A stretch of 62,815 nt of DNA, the filler included, from Pirum gemmata (taxonomy: Eukaryota), in assembly GCA_002812295.1 (NCBI GenBank). It is 17 parts of 17 records of this genome, joined end to end, with 100 filler letters (N's around TTAATTAATTAA, not from the genome) between each part and the next. Parts side by side here need not be neighbours in the genome. Positions count along the whole stretch, not along the records: positions 52,463 to 55,720 come from PDIN01002496.1; 16 more parts are not named here. One strand, written 5' to 3'. Position 1 is the stretch's first letter, and each line of letters starts with the position of its first letter. Shown piece by piece: positions 34,854 through 62,681 of this stretch. The notes below the pieces were generated by a model. That model had not been told where the DNA came from. It was given only the letters and a program-made list of their open reading frames with translations, and did no database searches. The position numbers were made by a program, and so were the translations under genes.

Positions 34854-35086
34854 AGTAGGGGTGAGATATCTACTGGAACTTTTTTCGAACAGATGCTTAT
34901 CGAGCCAACCTTAGTTCCGTGTTCTCTTACTAATAATAGCAGGTAAATAGCTTAAAATAGTAAATCTAATTATAGTATATACCAATTAAAGTAACAATGT
35001 TAACATTAATAGTAATAAAGTCATAAAATCGGAAAAGTTCCGGCAGCTGCTCGGTAATAATAAAATGACGTCATCTCACCCCTAAT
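34854..35086. mobile_element. MITE family B copy
   Basis: AGTAGGGGTGAGAT...ATCTCACCCCTAAT; interior very similar to the 36322, 44402 and 55145 copies. Confidence 0.88.
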
Positions 35087-36321: not shown

Positions 36322-36554
36322 AGAAGGGGAGAGATATCTACTGGAACTTTTTTCGAACAGATGCTTATCGAGCCAACCTTAGTTCCGTGTTTCTTACTAA
36401 TAAAAGAAGTTAAATAGCTTAAAATAGTGAATCTAATTATAGTAGATACTAATTAAAGTACTAATATTGCCATTAATAGTAACAAAAACCATAAAATTGG
36501 AAAAGTTCCGGCAGCTGTTCGGTAATAATAAAATGACGTCATCTCACCCCTAAT
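36322..36554. mobile_element. MITE family B copy with 8-bp TSD GCAGACCC
   Basis: gcagaccc at 36314-36321 and 36555-36562 flank AGAAGGGGAGAGAT...ATCTCACCCCTAAT. Confidence 0.92.
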
Positions 36555-39500
36555 GCAGACCCTCTCTAGCTAGCTAGCTAGTAGAGCTAGTCTAGCCTAG
36601 TCTAGCTAGCTAGACTCTCTAGCTAGCTAGCTAGTAGAGCAACTCGTAGAGCAACTGAGTAGAACTGAGTAGAGATAGCTAGCTAGCTAGCTAGAGCAAG
36701 ACTACTACTACTACTAGCTAGTAGCTAGTAGCTAGGGAGCAGCTGGCTTTTTAACAATCAAGCCGGATAAAACTGTAGAAAACTTTTTTTTTTTACTTTT
36801 TTTCTAAAACCTTAATTCTAACTAGCCAAATTATTTTTAAAAATTAGCCATTGGTTCATAATAAAGTTTTACTAATCAAACGATTCCTCAAATTTTGGTA
36901 GTACTTTTATTAAAATTGGAGTATTTTGAGAATTTTGGATTTCATTTTTAATAATAGACAGATAATAGACTATGGTAGTAGTACTAGGGTAGTGTAGATG
37001 GTAGTTAGTAGTCAAAAATAATATGACTCAAAATTTCAAAAATGACTCAAAATGACTCAAAAACGGGCTCCCGATGTCCCGAGTGCCCCCCCGTCTCTCA
37101 GGAGTCTCGGCCTCTCCGGGCCAAAAAAACAGCCAATTTTTATTTCTTTATATGAGCTGTACGATTCGTTTATATAGCTAGTCGTTTATCTATTAGTAGT
37201 AGCTAGTCGTTTATCCCGATTATCATAATAATATGTCTTAGAATATATCCATATATACCCATAATGCGACTATATAAGGTGGGAACTTTCAAGGGGTGAA
37301 AAGCTTGGGTGAAAACTGGGTGCTCGGTTGGACTGTGCTAGCTAGCTAGTAGGGGTGAGATATCTACTGGAACTTTTTTCGAACAGATGCTTATCGAGCC
37401 AACCTTAGTTCTCATAATTATCATAATATCAATTATATCATATCTGATAGATGATATTATGATATTTTTAAAATTAATAAATTGATGTACAGCTAACTAC
37501 TAGCTATAGTGCTTTTCAGTTGTTTTGTCGTCATAAAATAAATAATAAATAGTACCAAATTAATACAATATAAATCCATTTAATTTAATTTGGTATATTT
37601 TATCATATATGTATTGATGTAAAAGTGTCAATTTAAATATTATAACCCTCCAAATAAATATTCAGAGTGATAAAATAAAATGAAAAGCACGATAGAGTCT
37701 GGCAGTTCTGCTGTTCCCACTTTTTGTCTGTTATTCTATGTATTTACAAATAATATATAAATATCACATTTATTTGAGAACTTTATTTATATAAATAATA
37801 AATAATAATTCTGTTATTTATAAATAAATGAAAGCTAGGTCATAGTAATAATTATTATTATGATACCAGTAACCAGCATCACCTGCAGAGTGTCATGTCA
37901 TACCACACAAACTTGGTGGAACAAAATTTAAAAAAAGATATGATAAAATATATATCAAAAAATATATTCGACACCAAAAATCTTCCAAAAATCATGCTAT
38001 GAGTTGATTAATTTTTTCAAGTAAAAAAGCGTTATTATAATCACACATTCTAATTACACACTACCAAATAGACTGTGTAACTATTTATATATCTAAAATG
38101 AAGAAAATGGGGTATAGAACTGGTATAGATGGGCTTTTAACCACTCCAGATTTATATTTACATTTTAAAAAATAATTCTGATGGTTGAACAGAAAATCAC
38201 TATAGTGCAGATAGACTTGAATTTGACGTCACAGCTACCAATTAATTTTTTTCGTCACTACGGGATGTAATAACTCGATCTCGGAAAAAATGTTTTTTTT
38301 TTAAAATTTCATAATAATAAATAGGAAAAAAAAAANNNNNNNNNNNNNNNNNNNNNNNNNNNNNNNNNNNNNNNNNNNNTTAATTAATTAANNNNNNNNN
38401 NNNNNNNNNNNNNNNNNNNNNNNNNNNNNNNNNNNAATAATAATACCACAAGGCACAAACCCATCAGTTACAAAGCATCTCACTCCCAAAGCATCTAATA
38501 AAATTAATGTAAAATTGGCCTAGTAAAATTGGCATAATGCTAACTACTTTAATATTTGTGTAAAAATCAATGTTTATTCAAATTTATAATAATAAATTGA
38601 ACCCAACTATACTACGCTGATTAATTAATTAAGCCAACTAAATTAAACAATGATTGCATAACCAAACAGGAGTGTAATAATAATACCATGAGGAACAAAA
38701 CCCTCATGATCAATTACAAAGCATCTTCCAAATTAAAGCATCTAATAAAATTACTGTAAAATTGGCCTAGTAAAATTGGCACCGCTGTCAACTTACAACA
38801 ACACTTGTAATAAAGAGGCTAGGCCCTAGGCCGCTAGGGTTAGAAGTAATAGCTGTTGTAAATTGTTGTTTCTATTTGTTTATCGATATATTAGTAGACT
38901 AGATTATAATTTAATATGCATTACTATTTTTTAAAAATATAAAACACAAAAAAAACAAAAAACCAAAACCAAAACCAAAACCAAAACCAAAACTCTAAAC
39001 AAAACTGTAAGAAAAATCGAAGGGGTCAGTTATTTTATAAAAAAAAATTAATATAAGTAAAAAGATAAAATCGAAATTGTAAAAATAACAATAATAAATA
39101 AAAAAATAAATAATAATTATAAAAAAACTAAAAAAAATGTATAGGTATTAATATTATGATAATTATATAATAAACCAAAAATCAAAGTTTAACAAAACGT
39201 GAACAACAACAACAACAATAATAATAACAACAATAATGATAATATAATAGTAATAATAATAGCAATAGCAATAATAATAATAACAACAACAGCAGCAGCA
39301 GCAGCAGCAGTAGAAACAACAACAATTATAGTAATTATAATATCATAACAACAAAATAACATAAACTCTTCAAAAAATTATAATAAAAAAAGTTATTGAT
39401 ACTGTCGGAATAGAAAATAATACCTAACACATTACTAATAATTAATAACTTATAATTAATTATATATATAAAAAAACTCCTTATTATAATAAAATTATAT

Positions 39501-44401: not shown

Positions 44402-44614
44402 AGTAGGGGTGAGATGACGTCATTTTATTATTACCGAACAGCTGTCGGAACTTTTCCGTTTAATGTTAATATTATTGCTTTAATTGGTATCTACTATAAT
44501 TATATTTACTATTTTAAGCTATTTAACTGCTATTATTAGTAAGGAACACGGAACTAAGGTTGGCTCGATAAGCATCTGTTCGAAAAAAGTTCCAGTAGAT
44601 ATCTCACCCCTACT
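44402..44614. mobile_element. MITE family B copy (reverse orientation)
   Basis: Perfect 14-bp TIR AGTAGGGGTGAGAT / ATCTCACCCCTACT; TSD not recognisable. Confidence 0.88.
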
Positions 44615-51604: not shown

Positions 51605-52478
51605 CTACTTAATTTTAATTAATGGTTTATAATGTTATATTAATATGATTCACTTTCCAATGTGTTTGATTGTTTTATTCTTTTAACTTCATCATCATCA
51701 TCATATCACTCATTTTATTATCAAAAAAATCATCGTATATATAATGCTTTCGTTTTAGCTGATAAATCTTTTATATTAAAATCTGGGTTCATAATATTAT
51801 GTTTAAAATCCTATAATAAAGCTTTTTAGCAGCATCATCATAATATAAAAATAGTTTTTTAAAAAAAATTAAAAATTATTAAAAATTTAAAAAAAAAAAT
51901 AAAAATTTAAAAAAAAAATTAAAAATTTTAAAAAATTAAAAATTAAAAAACGATATTATATTAGTGGCTATCAGATAATATAAATTACTAATAATAGTCT
52001 TTAGAAATTAGAACTGACAGCAAACTTGTAATCGATCTACTAGAGAGACTATGATGTAAAATAAACATACCAAATTATTATTATCGGACACATTTTAATT
52101 AATTTGGTAACTTATAAACAAGCTCAATTATACATTTTAACAGTACCAAATTAAAGATTGCCAACTCTAGGAAGCTTTATGAGAGGCTGATGAGCCTGGT
52201 ATTGGTTGACTATTGGTTGGTAGTTTACAACACATAATGATAATTCCATATATAGTATAATATTCTACATTCCACTAGACAAATTCCACAATATCTACCT
52301 CAGCAAAGGAGGGATGAGATGACGTCATTTTACTAATTGAAGGCTCTGGTACCAAAAGTTCGNNNNNNNNNNNNNNNNNNNNNNNNNNNNNNNNNNNNNN
52401 NNNNNNTTAATTAATTAANNNNNNNNNNNNNNNNNNNNNNNNNNNNNNNNNNNNNNNNNNNNCCTCAGTAATAATAAT

Positions 52479-52510
<32 letters not shown>

Positions 52511-52702
52511 ATGGGTTAGGGTTAGGGTTAGGGTTAGGACTAACTAGACTTTGACTAAACAATATGCTAAATAAAGCTGAAATAAAGCTAAATAAAGTAA
52601 CTTAAGAGGCACACCAGTTTCTAAAGACGTTTTTGCAGACGTTTTTTGAGTTGATGAAAAGCTGATAATTGTTTCTTAATATAGGTGATATAGATGCACG
52701 GT

Positions 52703-52986
52703 AACCCTAACCCTAATTATTATAACCCTAACCCTAACCCTAACCCTAATTATAACCCTAACCCTAAACACTAACCCTAATTATAACCCTAACCCTAACC
52801 CTAACCCTAACCCTAACCCTAACCCTAACCCTAATTATAACCCTAACCCTAAACACTAACCCTAATTATAACCCTAACCCTAACCTTGATCCTGACCCCA
52901 ACCCTAACCCCAACCCTAACCCTAACCTTGATCGTAACTCTAACCCTAACCCTAACCCTACCTAACCTTGATCCTAACCCTAACCA
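52703..52986. repeat. (CCCTAA)n array with recurring TTATAA / ACACTAA / TTGATC variant units
   Basis: Higher-order unit ccctaattataaccctaaccctaaacactaa occurs twice; ends ~65 bp before the Fanzor start. Confidence 0.9.
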
Positions 52987-53049
52987 TAAAAGTAAGAAAA
53001 ATAAAATTATTATAATTAAATAAAAAAAAATTAAATAAAAGTAAAAAAA

Positions 53050-55051
53050 ATGTTACTAAAGTATAATAATAATTTTAATACTAAATAGTAAAAGATGGTT
53101 GCCCAGTAATAATATTATCACTAATCCTTACTTTGCACACTTTAATGACAATGATAAATATCAGGAACCCAAATGATCACATGAACATCCAGACCGAACC
53201 TAATACAAACTTTTATTATGATAGGCATGCTGCCAATTTTTATTACGATAGTAGTGAACAACAACCTTACTTTCTTAATCAATGTAAAGCAGCTAATGAT
53301 TTTATTTATGGTACTAAACAAAATAGATATATATATTAATAATTTATTAAAAACTAAATTTACTAGGGTAGTCAATAGTATAAAATCCAGATTCAATATT
53401 AATACTAATCCACCCAAGAAACAATTTGGATAAAATATTATTAATACAACCAGTCTTTAAGTAAACATCATGTAGTTAAAAGTGCTTGTACTTTTGATTC
53501 CAAGTATAATCGTAATACTTGTGTTTTAGTTAATGATGAGTTATTAAGTAATAGTGAACGAATCCAAAGTATCTTCAAACTAATTAGTAAACTTTACAAT
53601 AGTATTTATAATCGCATGATTTTCTTGTATTGTAAGCAATGTAAAGAAAATCAACAACAGCAACACCACAACAAAGTTCAAGAGTTTTACACTAAAAAAC
53701 AACAATTAATTAATAAATAAACACAAGAAAAAATTAACTAAAACTAACTATAAAAAACTAACTAAAAATCAAAAACGCAAATACAAACAATACTTAAAAA
53801 AGATTAAAACTAAATATAATATTATGTAAAATTTAGTAATCAATATAAATGTAATGTATTTAATGCCGATAACAAAACTAATATGTCTATGATGAGAGAT
53901 TTGAAAAAAGTTAATAATCTAACACGTTATGAAAACATTATTAATACTAATTAAACAATAACTGAAACAATTGAATTTTACTACTTTAGATAGTACTCTA
54001 GATAAAGCTTATGATAACTTAGTTAGTATAATCAAACAACAAAAGACTAAAGAACAATATTTTTTTTAATTTGAAATTAAGAAGTAGAAAAAACAATTTA
54101 ATATTTTTCTTCAAAAATTTTATTATTAATCAACGTGATTATGATAAGCAGAACATAAAAAGATTATTCACTGAATTACAATAACCAGCAACCTGAATCT
54201 GAGTTTTATTTTATTTATAAAAAAAACAACACAAGAAGTGGCACTTAAACTGTAATGTGGAATATGATTTGAAGCAAAGCATCAATAGTAAAATAACCAC
54301 AACAAAAAGAATAGTGGGCAGTGATCATGGTGTTCACGTTCGTAAGTGGTTTGCAACGTATCAATTGAATGATAATATTTATCAACAACATCACTTTAGT
54401 AAGAACCTCAAGAAAAAAATTATTGCTAATAGTAAATTACAAAGACAAGTGAACCACCTCTTTTAAGTTATACCCGAAATTTGAAAAATCGAGATGTTGA
54501 AGAGGATGATTATTATTATTCTTTACAACAATTGTTTACACCTAGTTATAATTACAAAGTACATGATGATAATTATTTTTTTAAAAAACTTAAAAAAGCA
54601 AGAATCGCTAAAGCTAGCTAGAATGCAAAGTAAAGTGTCTAACTAATATGTTAAAAGATGCGCACTACAAGATTGCACGCTGGTTTTTTGATAGTAATGA
54701 TGTCGTGGTTTTAATTTCAGTGAAATGATTAAGAAGAAAGAGAAAAGAAGACGTAGAAAGATCGGAAAGAAAACTGTCAAGGACTTATTAACGTGTGCAC
54801 GTGGTTTCGCTATGTTTAAAGAACGATTAAAAAAGAAGTAGCTGAAAAAAGTTATACAGTTGTTATTGATAGTTATGAACCATATACGTCTAATACTTGT
54901 CGTGAAGGTAAACGAATCACAATCATTGGTAGTAAAGAAGTATTTAAATGTGGATATGAAGAGCTGAAGATATGAAGAGTGTGGTTTAGTTTGTGATCGT
55001 GATGAAAGCTCTGCTTTTTTAAATACTATAGTCATATGCATGTTTGTTTAG
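53050..55051 (+). pseudogene. Fanzor (eukaryotic TnpB-like RNA-guided nuclease), IS607/Fanzor2-like, decayed
   Basis: Frame-hopping translation: RIVGSDHGV(HV)RKWFATY (RuvC-I, D at 54323), MLKDAHYKIARWFFDSNDVVVL, FSEMIKK..RRKIGKKTVKDLLT...FAMFKERLKKK, VIDSYEPYTSNTCREG (E at 54877), GSKEVFKC, CGLVCDRDESSA (D at 55001). Start codon is approximate. Confidence 0.88.
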
Positions 55052-55144
55052 TTTATTAGTTAATTAAACAAAAAAAACCAAACGTTATAGGTAATTCTCA
55101 CCTCCTACATACAAAAAAGAATATGGATAATTGTCACTTATAAT

Positions 55145-55378
55145 AGTAGGGGTGAGATGACGTCATTTTATTATTACCGAACAGCTGCCGGAACTTTTCT
55201 GATTTTATGGTTTTAATTACTATTAATGTTAATTCGTATTACTTTAATTGGTATCTACTATAATTAGTTTTACTATTTTAAGCTATTTAACTGCTATTAT
55301 TAGTAAAGAACAAGGAACTAAGGTTGGCTCGATAAGCATATGTTCGAAAAAAGTTCCAGTAGATATCTCACCCCTACT
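55145..55378. mobile_element. MITE family B, full copy with 8-bp TSD CTTATAAT
   Basis: cttataat at 55137-55144 and 55379-55386; perfect 14-bp TIR. Confidence 0.95.
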
Positions 55379-55412
55379 CTTATAATTTAGGGTAATAATG
55401 TAAAGACACACC

Positions 55413-55614
55413 AGGAGGGATGAGATGACGTCATCTTACTAATTGGACGCTCGGACTAGCGAACTTCCAGAAATTTGCCTAAAGTTACTATAAATAGTAT
55501 AATAAACTCTTTTTAAAGTAACTACTTAAATAGGTAGCTACTAAATAAATAATTACAAATACGAAATATGGTAAGGCGAAACAGGCGAACAACATAAGGG
55601 TTCTCACCCCTCCT
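55413..55614. mobile_element. MITE family C, full copy with 8-bp TSD GACACACC
   Basis: gacacacc at 55405-55412 and 55615-55622; ends AGGAGGGATGAGA / TCTCACCCCTCCT. Confidence 0.93.
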
Positions 55615-56864
55615 GACACACCCTATAAAAAAAACTAAGAAATAGTTTTGAAATTATTCTTGTTTTTTGGGGTCAAGTACATAGTAGAGTATACCACATG
55701 ATAATAAGAGTAACCATAAANNNNNNNNNNNNNNNNNNNNNNNNNNNNNNNNNNNNNNNNNNNNTTAATTAATTAANNNNNNNNNNNNNNNNNNNNNNNN
55801 NNNNNNNNNNNNNNNNNNNNTAATAATAAATAATAATAAATAAATAATAAATAATAATAATAATAATAACAATAACAATAATAGTATAATTTTAGTTCCG
55901 GAAGTTTCTGGACCCCTAGCCTAAGAGACTATAGCTACATAATATTATAGCTACTTTTATTTATCAATTAAACCTAACAAAAGAGGCTCCCAGATGAGCA
56001 TAATAATTTAATAATAATAACAATATTAATAACAGTAATAAAAATTGAAGCTTTTATTAAAAGAATAAAAACAATAATAGCAATATTAATAGTACATTAT
56101 AGCAATTTTTGGTTTTCTAGCAATTGAATGTTTTTGGTTTTCTTGCCAGTTGTAACTTGTCAGCAGTTTCTTGTTAATTAAAGATAGTTATATATAAGTT
56201 TCAATTATATCTAATTATATATTACTACTACTACTACTACCATTACTACTACTACTACTACCGTTACTACTAGTACTACTGCTACCATTACTACTACTAC
56301 TATCATTATTACTACTACCATTACTACTACTACTACCACATAACTATGACCAAAATAAACATATAAACAATAAACAATACAAACTTAATGTTGTGGTCAT
56401 AACCATAATAATAACAACAAAAAAAAGAAAAAAATATACTATTACTTATAAATAATAATAAACCTAACTATATATGATAATAACAATAACAATAACAATA
56501 ACAATAACAATAACAATAACAATAAACTAGGATTGTAACAACAATTCTATTGAAAATCAAACAATACCAATCTACCCCCTTTTGTATAAAGGTATTTTTT
56601 TTGTTATAAAAACAGCAATAATGCGTGTTATTAACAACAACAATAATAGTAATAATAATATTATTGTTTTAATTGTATTGAAAATCAAGCCTAACTTTTT
56701 TTACCTATAATTCCTCATCAATAATTCCAGAATTAACTGAAACTAAAGGGTACTCCAAATACTTCTAATATAACTTATTAACTATATTATTTCTCTTTCT
56801 AATTAAACAATTTTTTGGTTTCATCATTAAATTTTTTCTTGAAAGGAACACAATTAATAATAAC

Positions 56865-60695: not shown

Positions 60696-60888
60696 TCATT
60701 GAACTAAGGAAGTAGTTAATAATGGTAACGTAACAATAAGGCAAACCACAACAACTATAGAACCATAAAATGTATGCTCGAAAAACCCAACTATGACCGG
60801 TTGATGGGTTTTCTTGTTTTTTTTGGGTGTAGAAACACTACTATTATTATTATTATTATTATTATGTTGGGAATTATTACTAACGGTG

Positions 60889-60969
<81 letters not shown>

Positions 60970-62681
60970 TTAGGACTAGTTTCACTCATACTACCCACAA
61001 CTGTATTACTAATCTCATTATTATTATAGCTATTATTACTATTATTATTATTATCATGATCACAATCAATTTCAGGCTGAGAAGTTTCTCTTATTAAAGT
61101 TCCATATATAATAAGCTGTGTAATTGATCCATTTGGGGTTAACGCACCTCCTATACCAGCCACAACGGCCACAAAAAAGTAAGTTTGATTCTGACTAACG
61201 CCATTCACAGCTAGATTGACAACTTGCGGAGCTAAAATAAACACAGCAGGTACATTGGACACTAATTGCACATAAGCTAAAATAATGATAGTCAAAAAAA
61301 TCATTGGCCCTGCTTCTGTAACTGATATATAGGGTTCAACAAGGTTAAAAAACCAGATTGGTACTCCGGTATCAATGAAAGCTTGCATAGTTACAAAAAT
61401 ATACATTATGTAATAGACCACGTGATGGTGAATTGAAAGCGAGATTAAACTATGGAAATCTTGTCCAGCAAGAACTAGAGCAATGACAGCCCCGCTAAAA
61501 GCAACAAGGCCAAATTCCAAATTAAAAAAATAGCAAATAATGACTGCTACAATGACGAAGTAAATATAATACTGATAAAATAAGCGTTTTAAGAACTTAA
61601 ATCGTTTGCTAAGTTTGGATTCTGAGGAAGAGGAAGAAGATTTGATGGGCTTGATTATTTTTTCTTCTTCGTTGTAAACAGTAAAAGTATTAATTGAAAT
61701 GGGTGTCTCGAGGTTTTGACCGGACGACACCGAGGACATTGGGTGTGAATTTTTTTGTCTTAAACTATTATTAGTGGAGTTGATGCTAGGAAGAGGTTGT
61801 AATTCCACATTTTCATGAATACACTCGGGTTTGCTTTTTTCATTGTTTGCATTAGCGTTAGCATTATTACTACTGCTACTACCACTATTCTGGTGATTAC
61901 TTTCAATTCTAGCTACGTTATCACCATCAACATTGGTTGATTCGGCTGTAACAATTAATTTGCGATAAAACATAATCAAACATACAAACAAACTTAGAAA
62001 GACATTAATGACCCATATTACCACTACTCTCGAAAAAAAGAAAGAAAATGACATACCTGTATCGTTGGCCTCACCAAATAAAACTACTAAAGTATTCCCA
62101 GGATTTCCAACTGGGGTTAGAAAACTACCAATGTTACAAGCAATCGACAAACCAATGCTATAAGCTTTTAAGTCTAAGTTATGTTTTTTACTGTAATCGA
62201 TGGTTGGTTTAGCTAAGCCTAACGCTGCAGTATCCCAACCCAAAAACGCAGCATAAACTGTCGTAAATAGGTATAAGCTTGCAAATTCTAATAATTGGTA
62301 TTTAGCTTTTCCACCTTTATAATCACCATTTTCATTACGAACTAAGTTAAAGATAAAGCTGTTGAAAAACTTTGAATGCAAATCTGCTCGTGTTTCCAAA
62401 AAATACACAAAAACCATGTTACCAATAACCACAAATAATAGCGGTAAATTACAACCAATTACATTGTACACTGTTTCAACTTTAATTACAACAAATATTA
62501 CCATTAGCGTACCAGCAACAAGGGTGGCACCAGGCCTCCCAACCCAATTATAACGTGATTGCGAATTATTAATAATTAAAAACAAACAGAACCAGATACA
62601 ACCGACAACAACCTTGTATGTATTGCTGTTAATGCCTTCTGGCATTTCTATGGCTGCACAGCCTGCTATTTCGAGTCCCAT
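60696..62681 (-). CDS. ArsB/NhaD (ion-transporter superfamily) permease, Lsi2-like
   Basis: VGRPGATLVAGTLMV, CNIGSFLTPVGNPGN, LVSNVPAV, GGALTPNGS correspond to Lsi2/ArsB-family motifs; multiple TM helices; intronless with poly-S/N inserts. Confidence 0.85.

What the first reader, a model, noticed from the sequence alone, without database searches (positions are those of the whole stretch)
53050..55051. Hidden Fanzor (TnpB-type RNA-guided nuclease) locus, invisible to the ORF track
Seen: in correct order and spacing, a 'LYNSIYNRMI' helix, 'WHLNCNVEY', RuvC-I 'GSDHGV..R', 'KDAHYKIARWF..NDVVVL', 'RKIGKKTVKDLLT..F.MFKERL', 'EPYTSNTC', zinc-finger cysteines (one changed TGT to GGT) and RuvC-III 'DRD'. 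Known: loss of the canonical RuvC-II Glu with use of the Glu before YTS is the rearranged site of IS607-type TnpB and Fanzors, which occur in giant viruses and scattered eukaryotes. At ~660 codons it has a long N-terminal extension, and no serine recombinase is visible on this piece. Several C-terminal lesions are removable small duplications (54612-54620, 54639-54646, 54964-54979), so that part can be reconstructed. Inference: this genome hosts or hosted a divergent Fanzor family and intact copies may exist elsewhere.
Basis: partly seen in the sequence, partly recalled or inferred. Interest (0 to 1): 0.9.

Follow-up and report, generated by a model that had tools for sequence, protein, structure and literature searches.

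The report
Dead Fanzor2 gene with intact sibling
A small scaffold of a eukaryote, likely a single-celled relative of animals, carries a broken copy of a Fanzor2-type gene (a known kind of transposon enzyme, predicted here to have cut DNA under RNA guidance), and public data hold an unbroken 642-residue relative that could be tested directly.

Summary
All nine named motifs lie in order on the + strand over three frames. The locus (about 53016-55051) is a pseudogene: it aligns end to end with an intact 642-aa public protein, P0002 (458 of 626 aligned residues identical), through 18 frameshifts and 4 stops. P0002 has the full Fanzor signature (DPG, Pro at the usual RuvC-II Glu, shifted Glu, C4 zinc finger, RuvC-III Asp); its only solved-structure sequence match in the family and best fold match is mimivirus Fanzor2 (9B0L). 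A 207-aa gene model from the ichthyosporean Pirum gemmata is a third member (77% identical), so the host is probably an ichthyosporean; my searches found no paper placing Fanzor there. The trio forms a long branch, at most 31% identical to other Fanzor2-like proteins sampled. No serine recombinase is in the window. A weak terminal-repeat-like word follows the stop and resembles the ends of neighbouring 8-bp-TSD MITEs, but no left end or TSD is seen, so the carrier element is unresolved. Guide RNA and activity are untested. The three duplications named are real but are only 3 of 18 frameshifts. Verdict: new, divergent member of a known kind.

The parts
53016..55051 (+). Fanzor2-type pseudogene, collinear with all 642 aa of P0002; 18 frameshifts, 4 stops; ends at TAG 55049-55051
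   Evidence: 458 of 626 aligned residues identical
53016..53560 (+). N-terminal extension (about P0002 1-170), starting with a Lys-rich stretch (9 of first 16 residues K in P0002; possible nuclear signal, inferred); homology to the ApmFz2 N-terminal domain not shown
53560..54070 (+). REC-like helical region incl. LYNSIYNRMI helix and a long Lys/Gln-rich helical stretch (P0002 about 170-330)
54070..54310 (+). WED-like strands incl. WHLNCNVEY
54317..54334 (+). RuvC-I: Asp codon at 54323 kept; DPG changed to DHG (CAT at 54326)
54460..54600 (+). Family-specific acidic insert of about 40 aa between RuvC-I and RuvC-II (Asp-to-Glu spacing 182 in P0002; 120-176 in 103 others)
54696..54720 (+). Usual RuvC-II position: codons deleted here; Pro538 (YPSF) in P0002 and P0001
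54877..54982 (+). Shifted catalytic Glu (54877) and zinc finger: Cys 54898, Gly 54907 (Cys in relatives), Cys 54949, Cys 54980
54995..55003 (+). RuvC-III DRD, Asp codon at 55001 kept
55043..55072 (+). Predicted 11-bp hairpin across the stop codon, in the region where a guide RNA scaffold would lie; folding not better than shuffles
   Evidence: z -1.36 to +1.5
55096..55109 (-). Terminal-repeat-like word resembling the MITE ends (one extra base); candidate right end, unproven
   Evidence: 15.2 bits; 3 other non-training sites in the window reach 15
55145..55378 (.). MITE-like element A, 14-bp terminal inverted repeats, 8-bp target duplication CTTATAAT; neighbour, link to the Fanzor unproven
55413..55614 (.). 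MITE-like element B, related ends, 8-bp target duplication GACACACC
52705..52987 (+). Degenerate (TAACCC)n array directly upstream; such arrays are in 8 of 17 scaffolds, so probably unrelated

Best explanation
The locus is a dead, heavily frameshifted copy of a Fanzor2-type gene whose intact form (represented by P0002) is predicted to be an RNA-guided DNA nuclease likely carried by a transposon that lacks its own transposase. Shown: homology over the whole length, the decay, the rearranged catalytic signature in the intact relative, absence of a serine recombinase in the window. Inferred from characterised Fanzor2/TnpB: the protein would load a guide RNA made from the 3' end of the gene plus the element's right end, with the flanking host bases as guide, read a short motif beside the target and cut DNA with Asp411/Glu593/Asp629, most likely at empty donor sites so that repair restores the element (this last role is recalled from TnpB work). 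The element would be moved by a transposase encoded elsewhere; which kind is open (rough split: inverted-repeat element like the neighbouring MITEs 0.35, IS607 derivative 0.3, other 0.35). This copy cannot make the protein.
For: Piece 54820-54969 finds P0001 (79% identity, E 5e-14); P0001 finds the stop-free 642-aa P0002 (E 1e-97). P0002 aligns over the whole locus at 73%. P0002 keeps D411-P-G, P538, E593 with six residues before C600, C600/603/617/622, D629, the Fanzor signature of bioRxiv 2023.08.09.552727. Sequence search of PDB: 9B0L (mimivirus Fanzor2) is the only family hit for P0001 and P0002 (E 1.3e-11, 6.3e-10). Pfam Cas12f1-like_TNB above cut-off. Atlas top three clusters are TNB-domain proteins, 85-100% viral (0.96-0.97). 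Model (pLDDT 61.9): top PDB match 9B0L by Foldseek (E 4e-13; SpuFz1 2e-4) and VIA (Z 18.3, rmsd 5.2, 377 aligned); top viral matches are giant-virus proteins. RuvC half matches 47 of 47 shifted-Glu viral/phage proteins at E 1.7e-23 to 0.016 but 0 of 11 Fanzor1-like ones (E 0.5 or worse). Scaffold shares MITEs and TAACCC arrays with other scaffolds, so it is host DNA.
Against: NCBIfam TnpB models match P0001 below cut-off (55 of 100 bits; IS607 model 29 of 350). Single window pieces give only weak Pfam hits (best E 0.041). The model was built on an alignment of Fanzor2-like proteins, which biases the fold ranking; 238 of 642 residues have pLDDT under 50. The N-terminal 200 aa do not match a profile of 75 Fanzor2-like N-termini (211 of 300 shuffles score as well). 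The tree gives no firm sister group. No guide RNA signal: folding no better than shuffles, no Rfam match of note. Source organism and flanks of P0002 are unknown.
Confidence: 0.88

Rival explanations
1. Remnant of a canonical IS607-Fanzor2 element or of an integrated giant virus: the serine recombinase and viral genes lay beyond the scaffold end or were deleted.
For: Nearest fold and feature matches are giant-virus proteins; 23 of 47 viral and 51 of 65 metagenome loci sampled carry a TnpA; only about 550 bases lie upstream, over half of them simple repeats.
Against: TnpA profile finds nothing in the window's six frames (best E 0.89); no close relative in viral contigs; flanks are host-type repeats and MITEs; PMC11244446 reports no reliable giant-virus hit in the Pirum gemmata genome (passage), which bears on this only if the host is that species.
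Confidence: 0.25
2. The family was domesticated or lost cutting: P0002 is a single host gene with another role (binding, regulation) and the window copy is a decayed duplicate.
For: Long stem branch (1.85 changes per column), unrecognisable N-terminus, a family-specific insert; only one intact ORF found.
Against: All three catalytic residues and four Cys are kept in P0002; at least three copies at 74-82% identity, two apparently decayed, is the pattern of a transposon family.
Confidence: 0.07
3. It is a Fanzor1, or an independent transfer of a bacterial TnpB (or a contaminant).
For: Length of 642 aa is in the range of the Fanzor1-like set (616-638 aa); the test of a P0002+Fanzor1 clade did not finish.
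Against: No sequence match to SpuFz1 in PDB at E up to 1, to 11 Fanzor1-like proteins or to their profile (-47.6 bits); it has the YPSF...RKI.KKTV pattern shared with the Fanzor2-like set; no close relative among prokaryote genomes; best phage and plasmid hits are 27-34% over under 30% of the length.
Confidence: 0.05
4. The breaks are assembly or sequencing errors and the gene is intact in the cell.
For: Most frameshifts are net insertions (15 of 18 by the alignment; locus about 107 nt longer than 642 codons) and reads could not be examined.
Against: Breaks come with 27% amino-acid divergence, loss of a zinc Cys and of the DPG Pro, in-frame inserts and multi-base duplications; other scaffolds of the window hold clean 661- and 895-codon frames.
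Confidence: 0.02

Closest known systems
ApmFz2, Fanzor2 of Acanthamoeba polyphaga mimivirus (L79, PDB 9B0L; PMC11832414)
   Same: Best sequence and fold match; same domain order and rearranged triad (its Asp324/Glu467/Asp501 correspond to Asp411/Glu593/Asp629 of P0002 by the alignment); N-terminal extension with a basic start.
   Different: 642 vs 520 aa, 16-18% identity in the fold alignments; extra helical stretch and a 40-aa acidic insert; N-terminal domain homology not shown; no IS607 TnpA beside it; only 58 bases from stop to the candidate end, against about 200 conserved bases in the mimivirus element (PMC10530073 passage).
Fanzor2* of molluscs and Chloropicon (bioRxiv 2023.08.09.552727)
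   Same: Nuclear, single-gene locus without TnpA; a possible inverted-repeat-type end just after the gene.
   Different: Both ends and target duplication not shown; the candidate carrier family makes 8-bp duplications, versus 4 and 5 bp reported. No mollusc or Chloropicon protein was in my tree.
Pro-Fanzor IS607 TnpBs of cyanobacteria and their phages (e.g. OR578706 protein, P0003)
   Same: DPG, Pro at the usual Glu, shifted Glu, C4 finger.
   Different: 29% identity over 23% of the length; forms its own supported clade apart from this family.
Fanzor1 (SpuFz1, PDB 8GKH; ghost loci, PMC10432273)
   Same: Similar size; DPG and shifted Glu; multi-copy with decayed copies.
   Different: No sequence match; weaker fold match; no similarity between the 3' tail and the MITE ends beyond the terminal word, so ghost-type loci are not supported.

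Membership tests
Fanzor (both types) | RuvC-I DPG motif | tested here: met
   P0002 and P0001 GSDPG; window copy DHG by point change
Fanzor (both types) | Catalytic Glu shifted to six residues before the zinc finger, usual Glu absent | tested here: met
   E593, C600, P538 in P0002; Glu codon 54877 in window; usual position deleted in window (definition)
Fanzor (both types) | D-X(125,275)-[TS][TS]-XX-C4 finger-X(5,50)-RD motif (PMC3627910) | tested here: met
   P0002 D411...T596-S597, four Cys, R628-D629; window keeps 3 of 4 Cys
Fanzor (both types) | Encoded in a eukaryote or eukaryotic virus | tested here: met
   Scaffold shares MITEs and TAACCC arrays with scaffolds carrying histone H1, Hsp90, MYND genes; a window protein is in EukProt
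Fanzor (both types) | Guide RNA from the 3' end | tested here: inconclusive
   Folding z -1.36 to +1.5 on one decayed copy; no second DNA copy to align
Fanzor (both types) | RNA-guided DNA cleavage | not testable with these tools
   Needs a bench assay with P0002
Fanzor2 | Closer to ApmFz2/pro-Fanzor than to Fanzor1 in sequence and fold | tested here: met
Fanzor2 | Falls in the pro-Fanzor/Fanzor2 clade of a tree | tested here: inconclusive
   Nested among shifted-Glu proteins with SH-aLRT 84-92, no starred group holds it; no curated eukaryotic references; AU test unfinished
Fanzor2 | N-terminal RuvC-R/thumb domain | tested here: inconclusive
   No profile match; VIA alignment to 9B0L alone extends back to model residue 113, in a low-confidence part
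IS607 element | Serine recombinase TnpA beside the gene | tested here: not met
   None in the window; scaffold ends about 550 bases upstream
Fanzor2* (TIR/TSD carrier) | Inverted repeats at both ends and a target duplication | tested here: inconclusive
   One weak right-end word; no left end or matching 8-mer upstream in the scaffold
Fanzor1 | Match to Fanzor1 sequences | tested here: not met
   the Fanzor1-like set was picked by a recalled motif

The most novel reading that the evidence does not exclude
An independent capture of a deeply diverged Fanzor2 by an 8-bp-TSD inverted-repeat transposon family in an ichthyosporean: the element ends at 55109, is moved by the transposase that moves the abundant neighbouring MITEs, uses a very short 3' guide-RNA region, and P0002 is a still-active nuclease with its own N-terminal domain, the first from this branch of animal relatives.
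Probability: 0.2. Interest if true: 0.65.

Novelty: new member of a known kind. Interest (0 to 1): 0.42.

Why it matters
The copy in the window is dead, but it leads to a natural, stop-free 642-aa Fanzor2-like protein with all catalytic residues that has no close relative in the collections searched, so no reconstruction is needed to test it. It probably extends Fanzor to Ichthyosporea, a lineage not named in the two census papers' text or searchable supplements, and adds a long-branch member with an unrecognised N-terminus and a RuvC insert, useful for editing-tool prospecting and for the question of how Fanzor2 leaves IS607 for eukaryotic transposons. It does not change the picture that Fanzors are widespread and often decayed.

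Tried and rejected
Single window pieces against PDB, Pfam (best E 0.041) and NCBIfam: nothing significant. Alternative genetic code considered and dropped: the breaks are mostly frameshifts, and long frames elsewhere read with the standard code. Single-sequence fold of P0002 failed (pLDDT 37). No whole genome was held and no reads were seen, so copy number, ends, expression and small RNAs remain open. The 1.84-billion-protein search never ran. Close relatives: none in viral contigs or prokaryote genomes; these are exact-word scans. The metagenome scan used YTSKTC, which this family (YTSNTC) would not match, and covered 16 of 64 parts, so it is no test for close relatives. Ghost-locus idea: 3' tail versus four MITE ends gave only low-complexity alignments. 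Telomere-targeting idea: arrays are in 8 of 17 scaffolds. Rfam: one weak PreQ1 match below its cut-off, taken as chance. Atlas on residues 1-290: first hits unnamed, TnpB-N-terminal-type families at 0.90-0.91 with low shared-feature counts, a lead only. AU test for a clade with Fanzor1 unfinished after two runs. Trees used 68 of 106 distinct rows after a 65% identity cut, then 62 after dropping 4 long rows and the 2 decayed copies.

Full report
Setting. The window is 17 unrelated scaffolds of about 3.5 kb joined by N spacers; the finding lies on the scaffold 52463-55720 (28% GC). Other scaffolds carry histone H1, Hsp90, a MYND finger and a citrate-transporter-family gene, so the host is a eukaryote. 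No whole genome was held and no reads were seen.

Observation. All nine motifs are present in order on the + strand over three frames. Single pieces are too short to score (best Pfam E 0.041 to the TNB domain). The piece 54820-54969 found one protein among 14 candidates, P0001, a 207-aa EukProt gene model from Pirum gemmata (79% identity). P0001 found one longer protein among 465 candidates, P0002, 642 aa, stop-free, known only from Logan contigs (3 contigs, longest 2403 bp). tblastn of P0002 covers 53084-55048 with combined E 3e-105 and nothing else in the window at E under 1. A frameshift-aware alignment spans all of P0002 from 53016 to 55048, with 458 of 626 aligned residues identical, 18 frameshifts and 4 stops; 100 shuffled queries reach at most 26.6 bits. 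A profile of 112 shifted-Glu proteins that holds no family member (though 65 were picked for likeness to P0002) puts its top four six-frame hits in this locus and scores the X-marked read-through at 69.3 bits against at most -13.9 for 200 shuffles.

State of this copy. Asp 54323, Glu 54877 and Asp 55001 survive; DPG is DHG, the second zinc Cys is Gly, and the codons at the usual RuvC-II position are deleted. The three named duplications coincide with breaks; overall 6 of 17 breaks tested sit at tandem duplications versus 151 of 1077 control positions. The copy is a pseudogene. P0001 lacks the N-terminal 390 aa and two internal stretches and is probably a gene model on another decayed copy (inference). 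Pairwise identities are 74-82%; P0002 has the shortest branch (0.08 versus 0.12 and 0.21), as expected for an intact member.

What the intact protein is. P0002 has D411-P-G, Pro538, Glu593 six residues before Cys600, Cys600/603/617/622 and Asp629. This is the signature given for Fanzors and pro-Fanzors, present in under 1% of TnpBs in that data set (bioRxiv 2023.08.09.552727; first seventh of the text and passages seen; supplements closed). In PDB the only family hit by sequence is mimivirus Fanzor2 9B0L. Pfam TNB passes its cut-off; NCBIfam TnpB models match P0001 below theirs. Atlas nearest clusters are TNB proteins of mostly giant viruses. The RuvC half matches all 47 long shifted-Glu proteins taken from 120 viral and phage loci (E 1.7e-23 to 0.016) and none of 11 Fanzor1-like proteins picked by a recalled motif. 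A model built on 39 sequences (pLDDT 61.9) ranks 9B0L first by Foldseek (E 4e-13; SpuFz1 2e-4) and VIA (Z 18.3, rmsd 5.2, 377 residues); the alignment used biases this ranking. In trees the three family members group at 100 on a stem of 1.85, inside the shifted-Glu set and apart from the cyanobacterial-type clade, with no firm sister; P0002 is at most 31% identical to any other row. The N-terminal 200 aa match no profile of Fanzor2-like N-termini, so the RuvC-R/thumb domain of ApmFz2 (PMC11832414, first two of five parts seen) is not shown. The Asp-to-Glu spacing of 182 exceeds the 120-176 of 103 others, owing to an acidic insert.

Carrier element. A TnpA profile from 94 ORFs finds nothing in the window, whereas 23 of 47 viral and 51 of 65 metagenome loci have one; the scaffold ends about 550 bases upstream. 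Downstream lie two MITE-like elements with related terminal repeats and exact 8-bp target duplications (55145-55378, 55413-55614); 15 such ends occur in the window. A word at 55096-55109 resembles these ends with one extra base, in right-end orientation, 44 bases after the stop and too close to the gene to close a normal MITE. It scores 15.2 bits, reached by 0 of 97,290 shuffled positions but by 3 other non-training sites of the real window; it was noticed after the fact, and no left end or matching 8-mer lies upstream. So a Fanzor2*-type carrier, as described for molluscs and Chloropicon, is possible but unproven. The tail does not resemble the MITE interiors, unlike the ghost loci of SpuFz1 (PMC10432273, passages). 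RNA folding of the tail shows an 11-bp hairpin over the stop but is no better than shuffles.

Mechanism. Shown: a decayed copy of a gene whose intact relative has every residue of the Fanzor2 active site. Inferred from ApmFz2 and other Fanzor2s (PMC11832414; PMC10530073 passages): a guide RNA from the 3' end, a short target-adjacent motif, cutting by the RuvC triad, nuclear import by the Lys-rich N-terminus. Recalled, not from a call: TnpB-type nucleases cut empty donor sites and so preserve their element. Transposition would rely on a transposase elsewhere.

Host and novelty. The host is probably Pirum or a near ichthyosporean: the closest named member is from Pirum (151 of 197 residues identical to this copy), and one of four window proteins looked up is in EukProt with its name withheld. 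This is not proven, and the source of P0002 is unknown. Searches for Fanzor with Ichthyosporea, ichthyospor and EukProt gave 0 papers; in a six-term search the 25 listed of 168 papers never mention Fanzor; ichthyosporean genus names are absent from the searchable supplements of PMC10530073 (2 files) and PMC10432273 (9 files, one picture PDF unread). Fanzor2 is already reported in fungi, molluscs, choanoflagellates and giant viruses, and Fanzor2 in IS607-type elements since PMC3627910 (passages). PMC11244446 found no reliable giant-virus hit in the Pirum genome (passage). No close relative appeared in viral contigs or prokaryote genomes.

Verdict. A real, dead Fanzor2-type gene; a new, divergent member of a known kind, made worthwhile by its intact natural relative and probable new host lineage. 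Interest 0.42.

Noticed in passing
window 8018-8173, 34854-35086, 36322-36554, 44402-44614, 55145-55378, 55413-55614; single ends at 37348, 42087, 52307: Abundant MITE-like family (150-235 bp, at least two subtypes) with terminal repeats AG[T/G]AGGG[G/A]TGAGA; exact 8-bp target duplication at 2 of 4 copies checked; often beside (TAGC)n runs. Transposase not seen.
   Followed up: partly
window 53016-55051: Lesions are biased to insertions (15 of 18 frameshifts; net about +107 nt), several being 4-nt tandem duplications, and some in-frame inserts look palindromic (near 54797, 55037), hinting at a slippage- or footprint-prone genome.
   Followed up: partly
8 of 17 scaffolds, e.g. 52513-52538 and 52705-52987: Telomere-like (TTAGGG)n/(TAACCC)n arrays are common inside scaffolds, sometimes head to head.
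   Followed up: partly
window 20610-23297 (+): Intronless 895-aa frame with an N-terminal membrane anchor, no Pfam match at E 0.001; looks like a multi-domain glycosyltransferase (by eye); singleton cluster in EukProt.
   Followed up: partly
window 13459-14856 (+): 465-codon open frame with no Pfam match, strand-rich, possibly a propeller-like protein.
   Followed up: no
window 19811-20299 (-): Linker histone H1 with a winged-helix domain (Pfam E 4e-22).
   Followed up: partly
window 60696-62681 (-): Intronless 661-aa CitMHS-family transporter with low-complexity inserts.
   Followed up: partly
L004 2479-4156: IS607 TnpA overlapping, in another frame, the N-terminal part of a 512-aa pro-Fanzor in a phage-like contig.
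   Followed up: no
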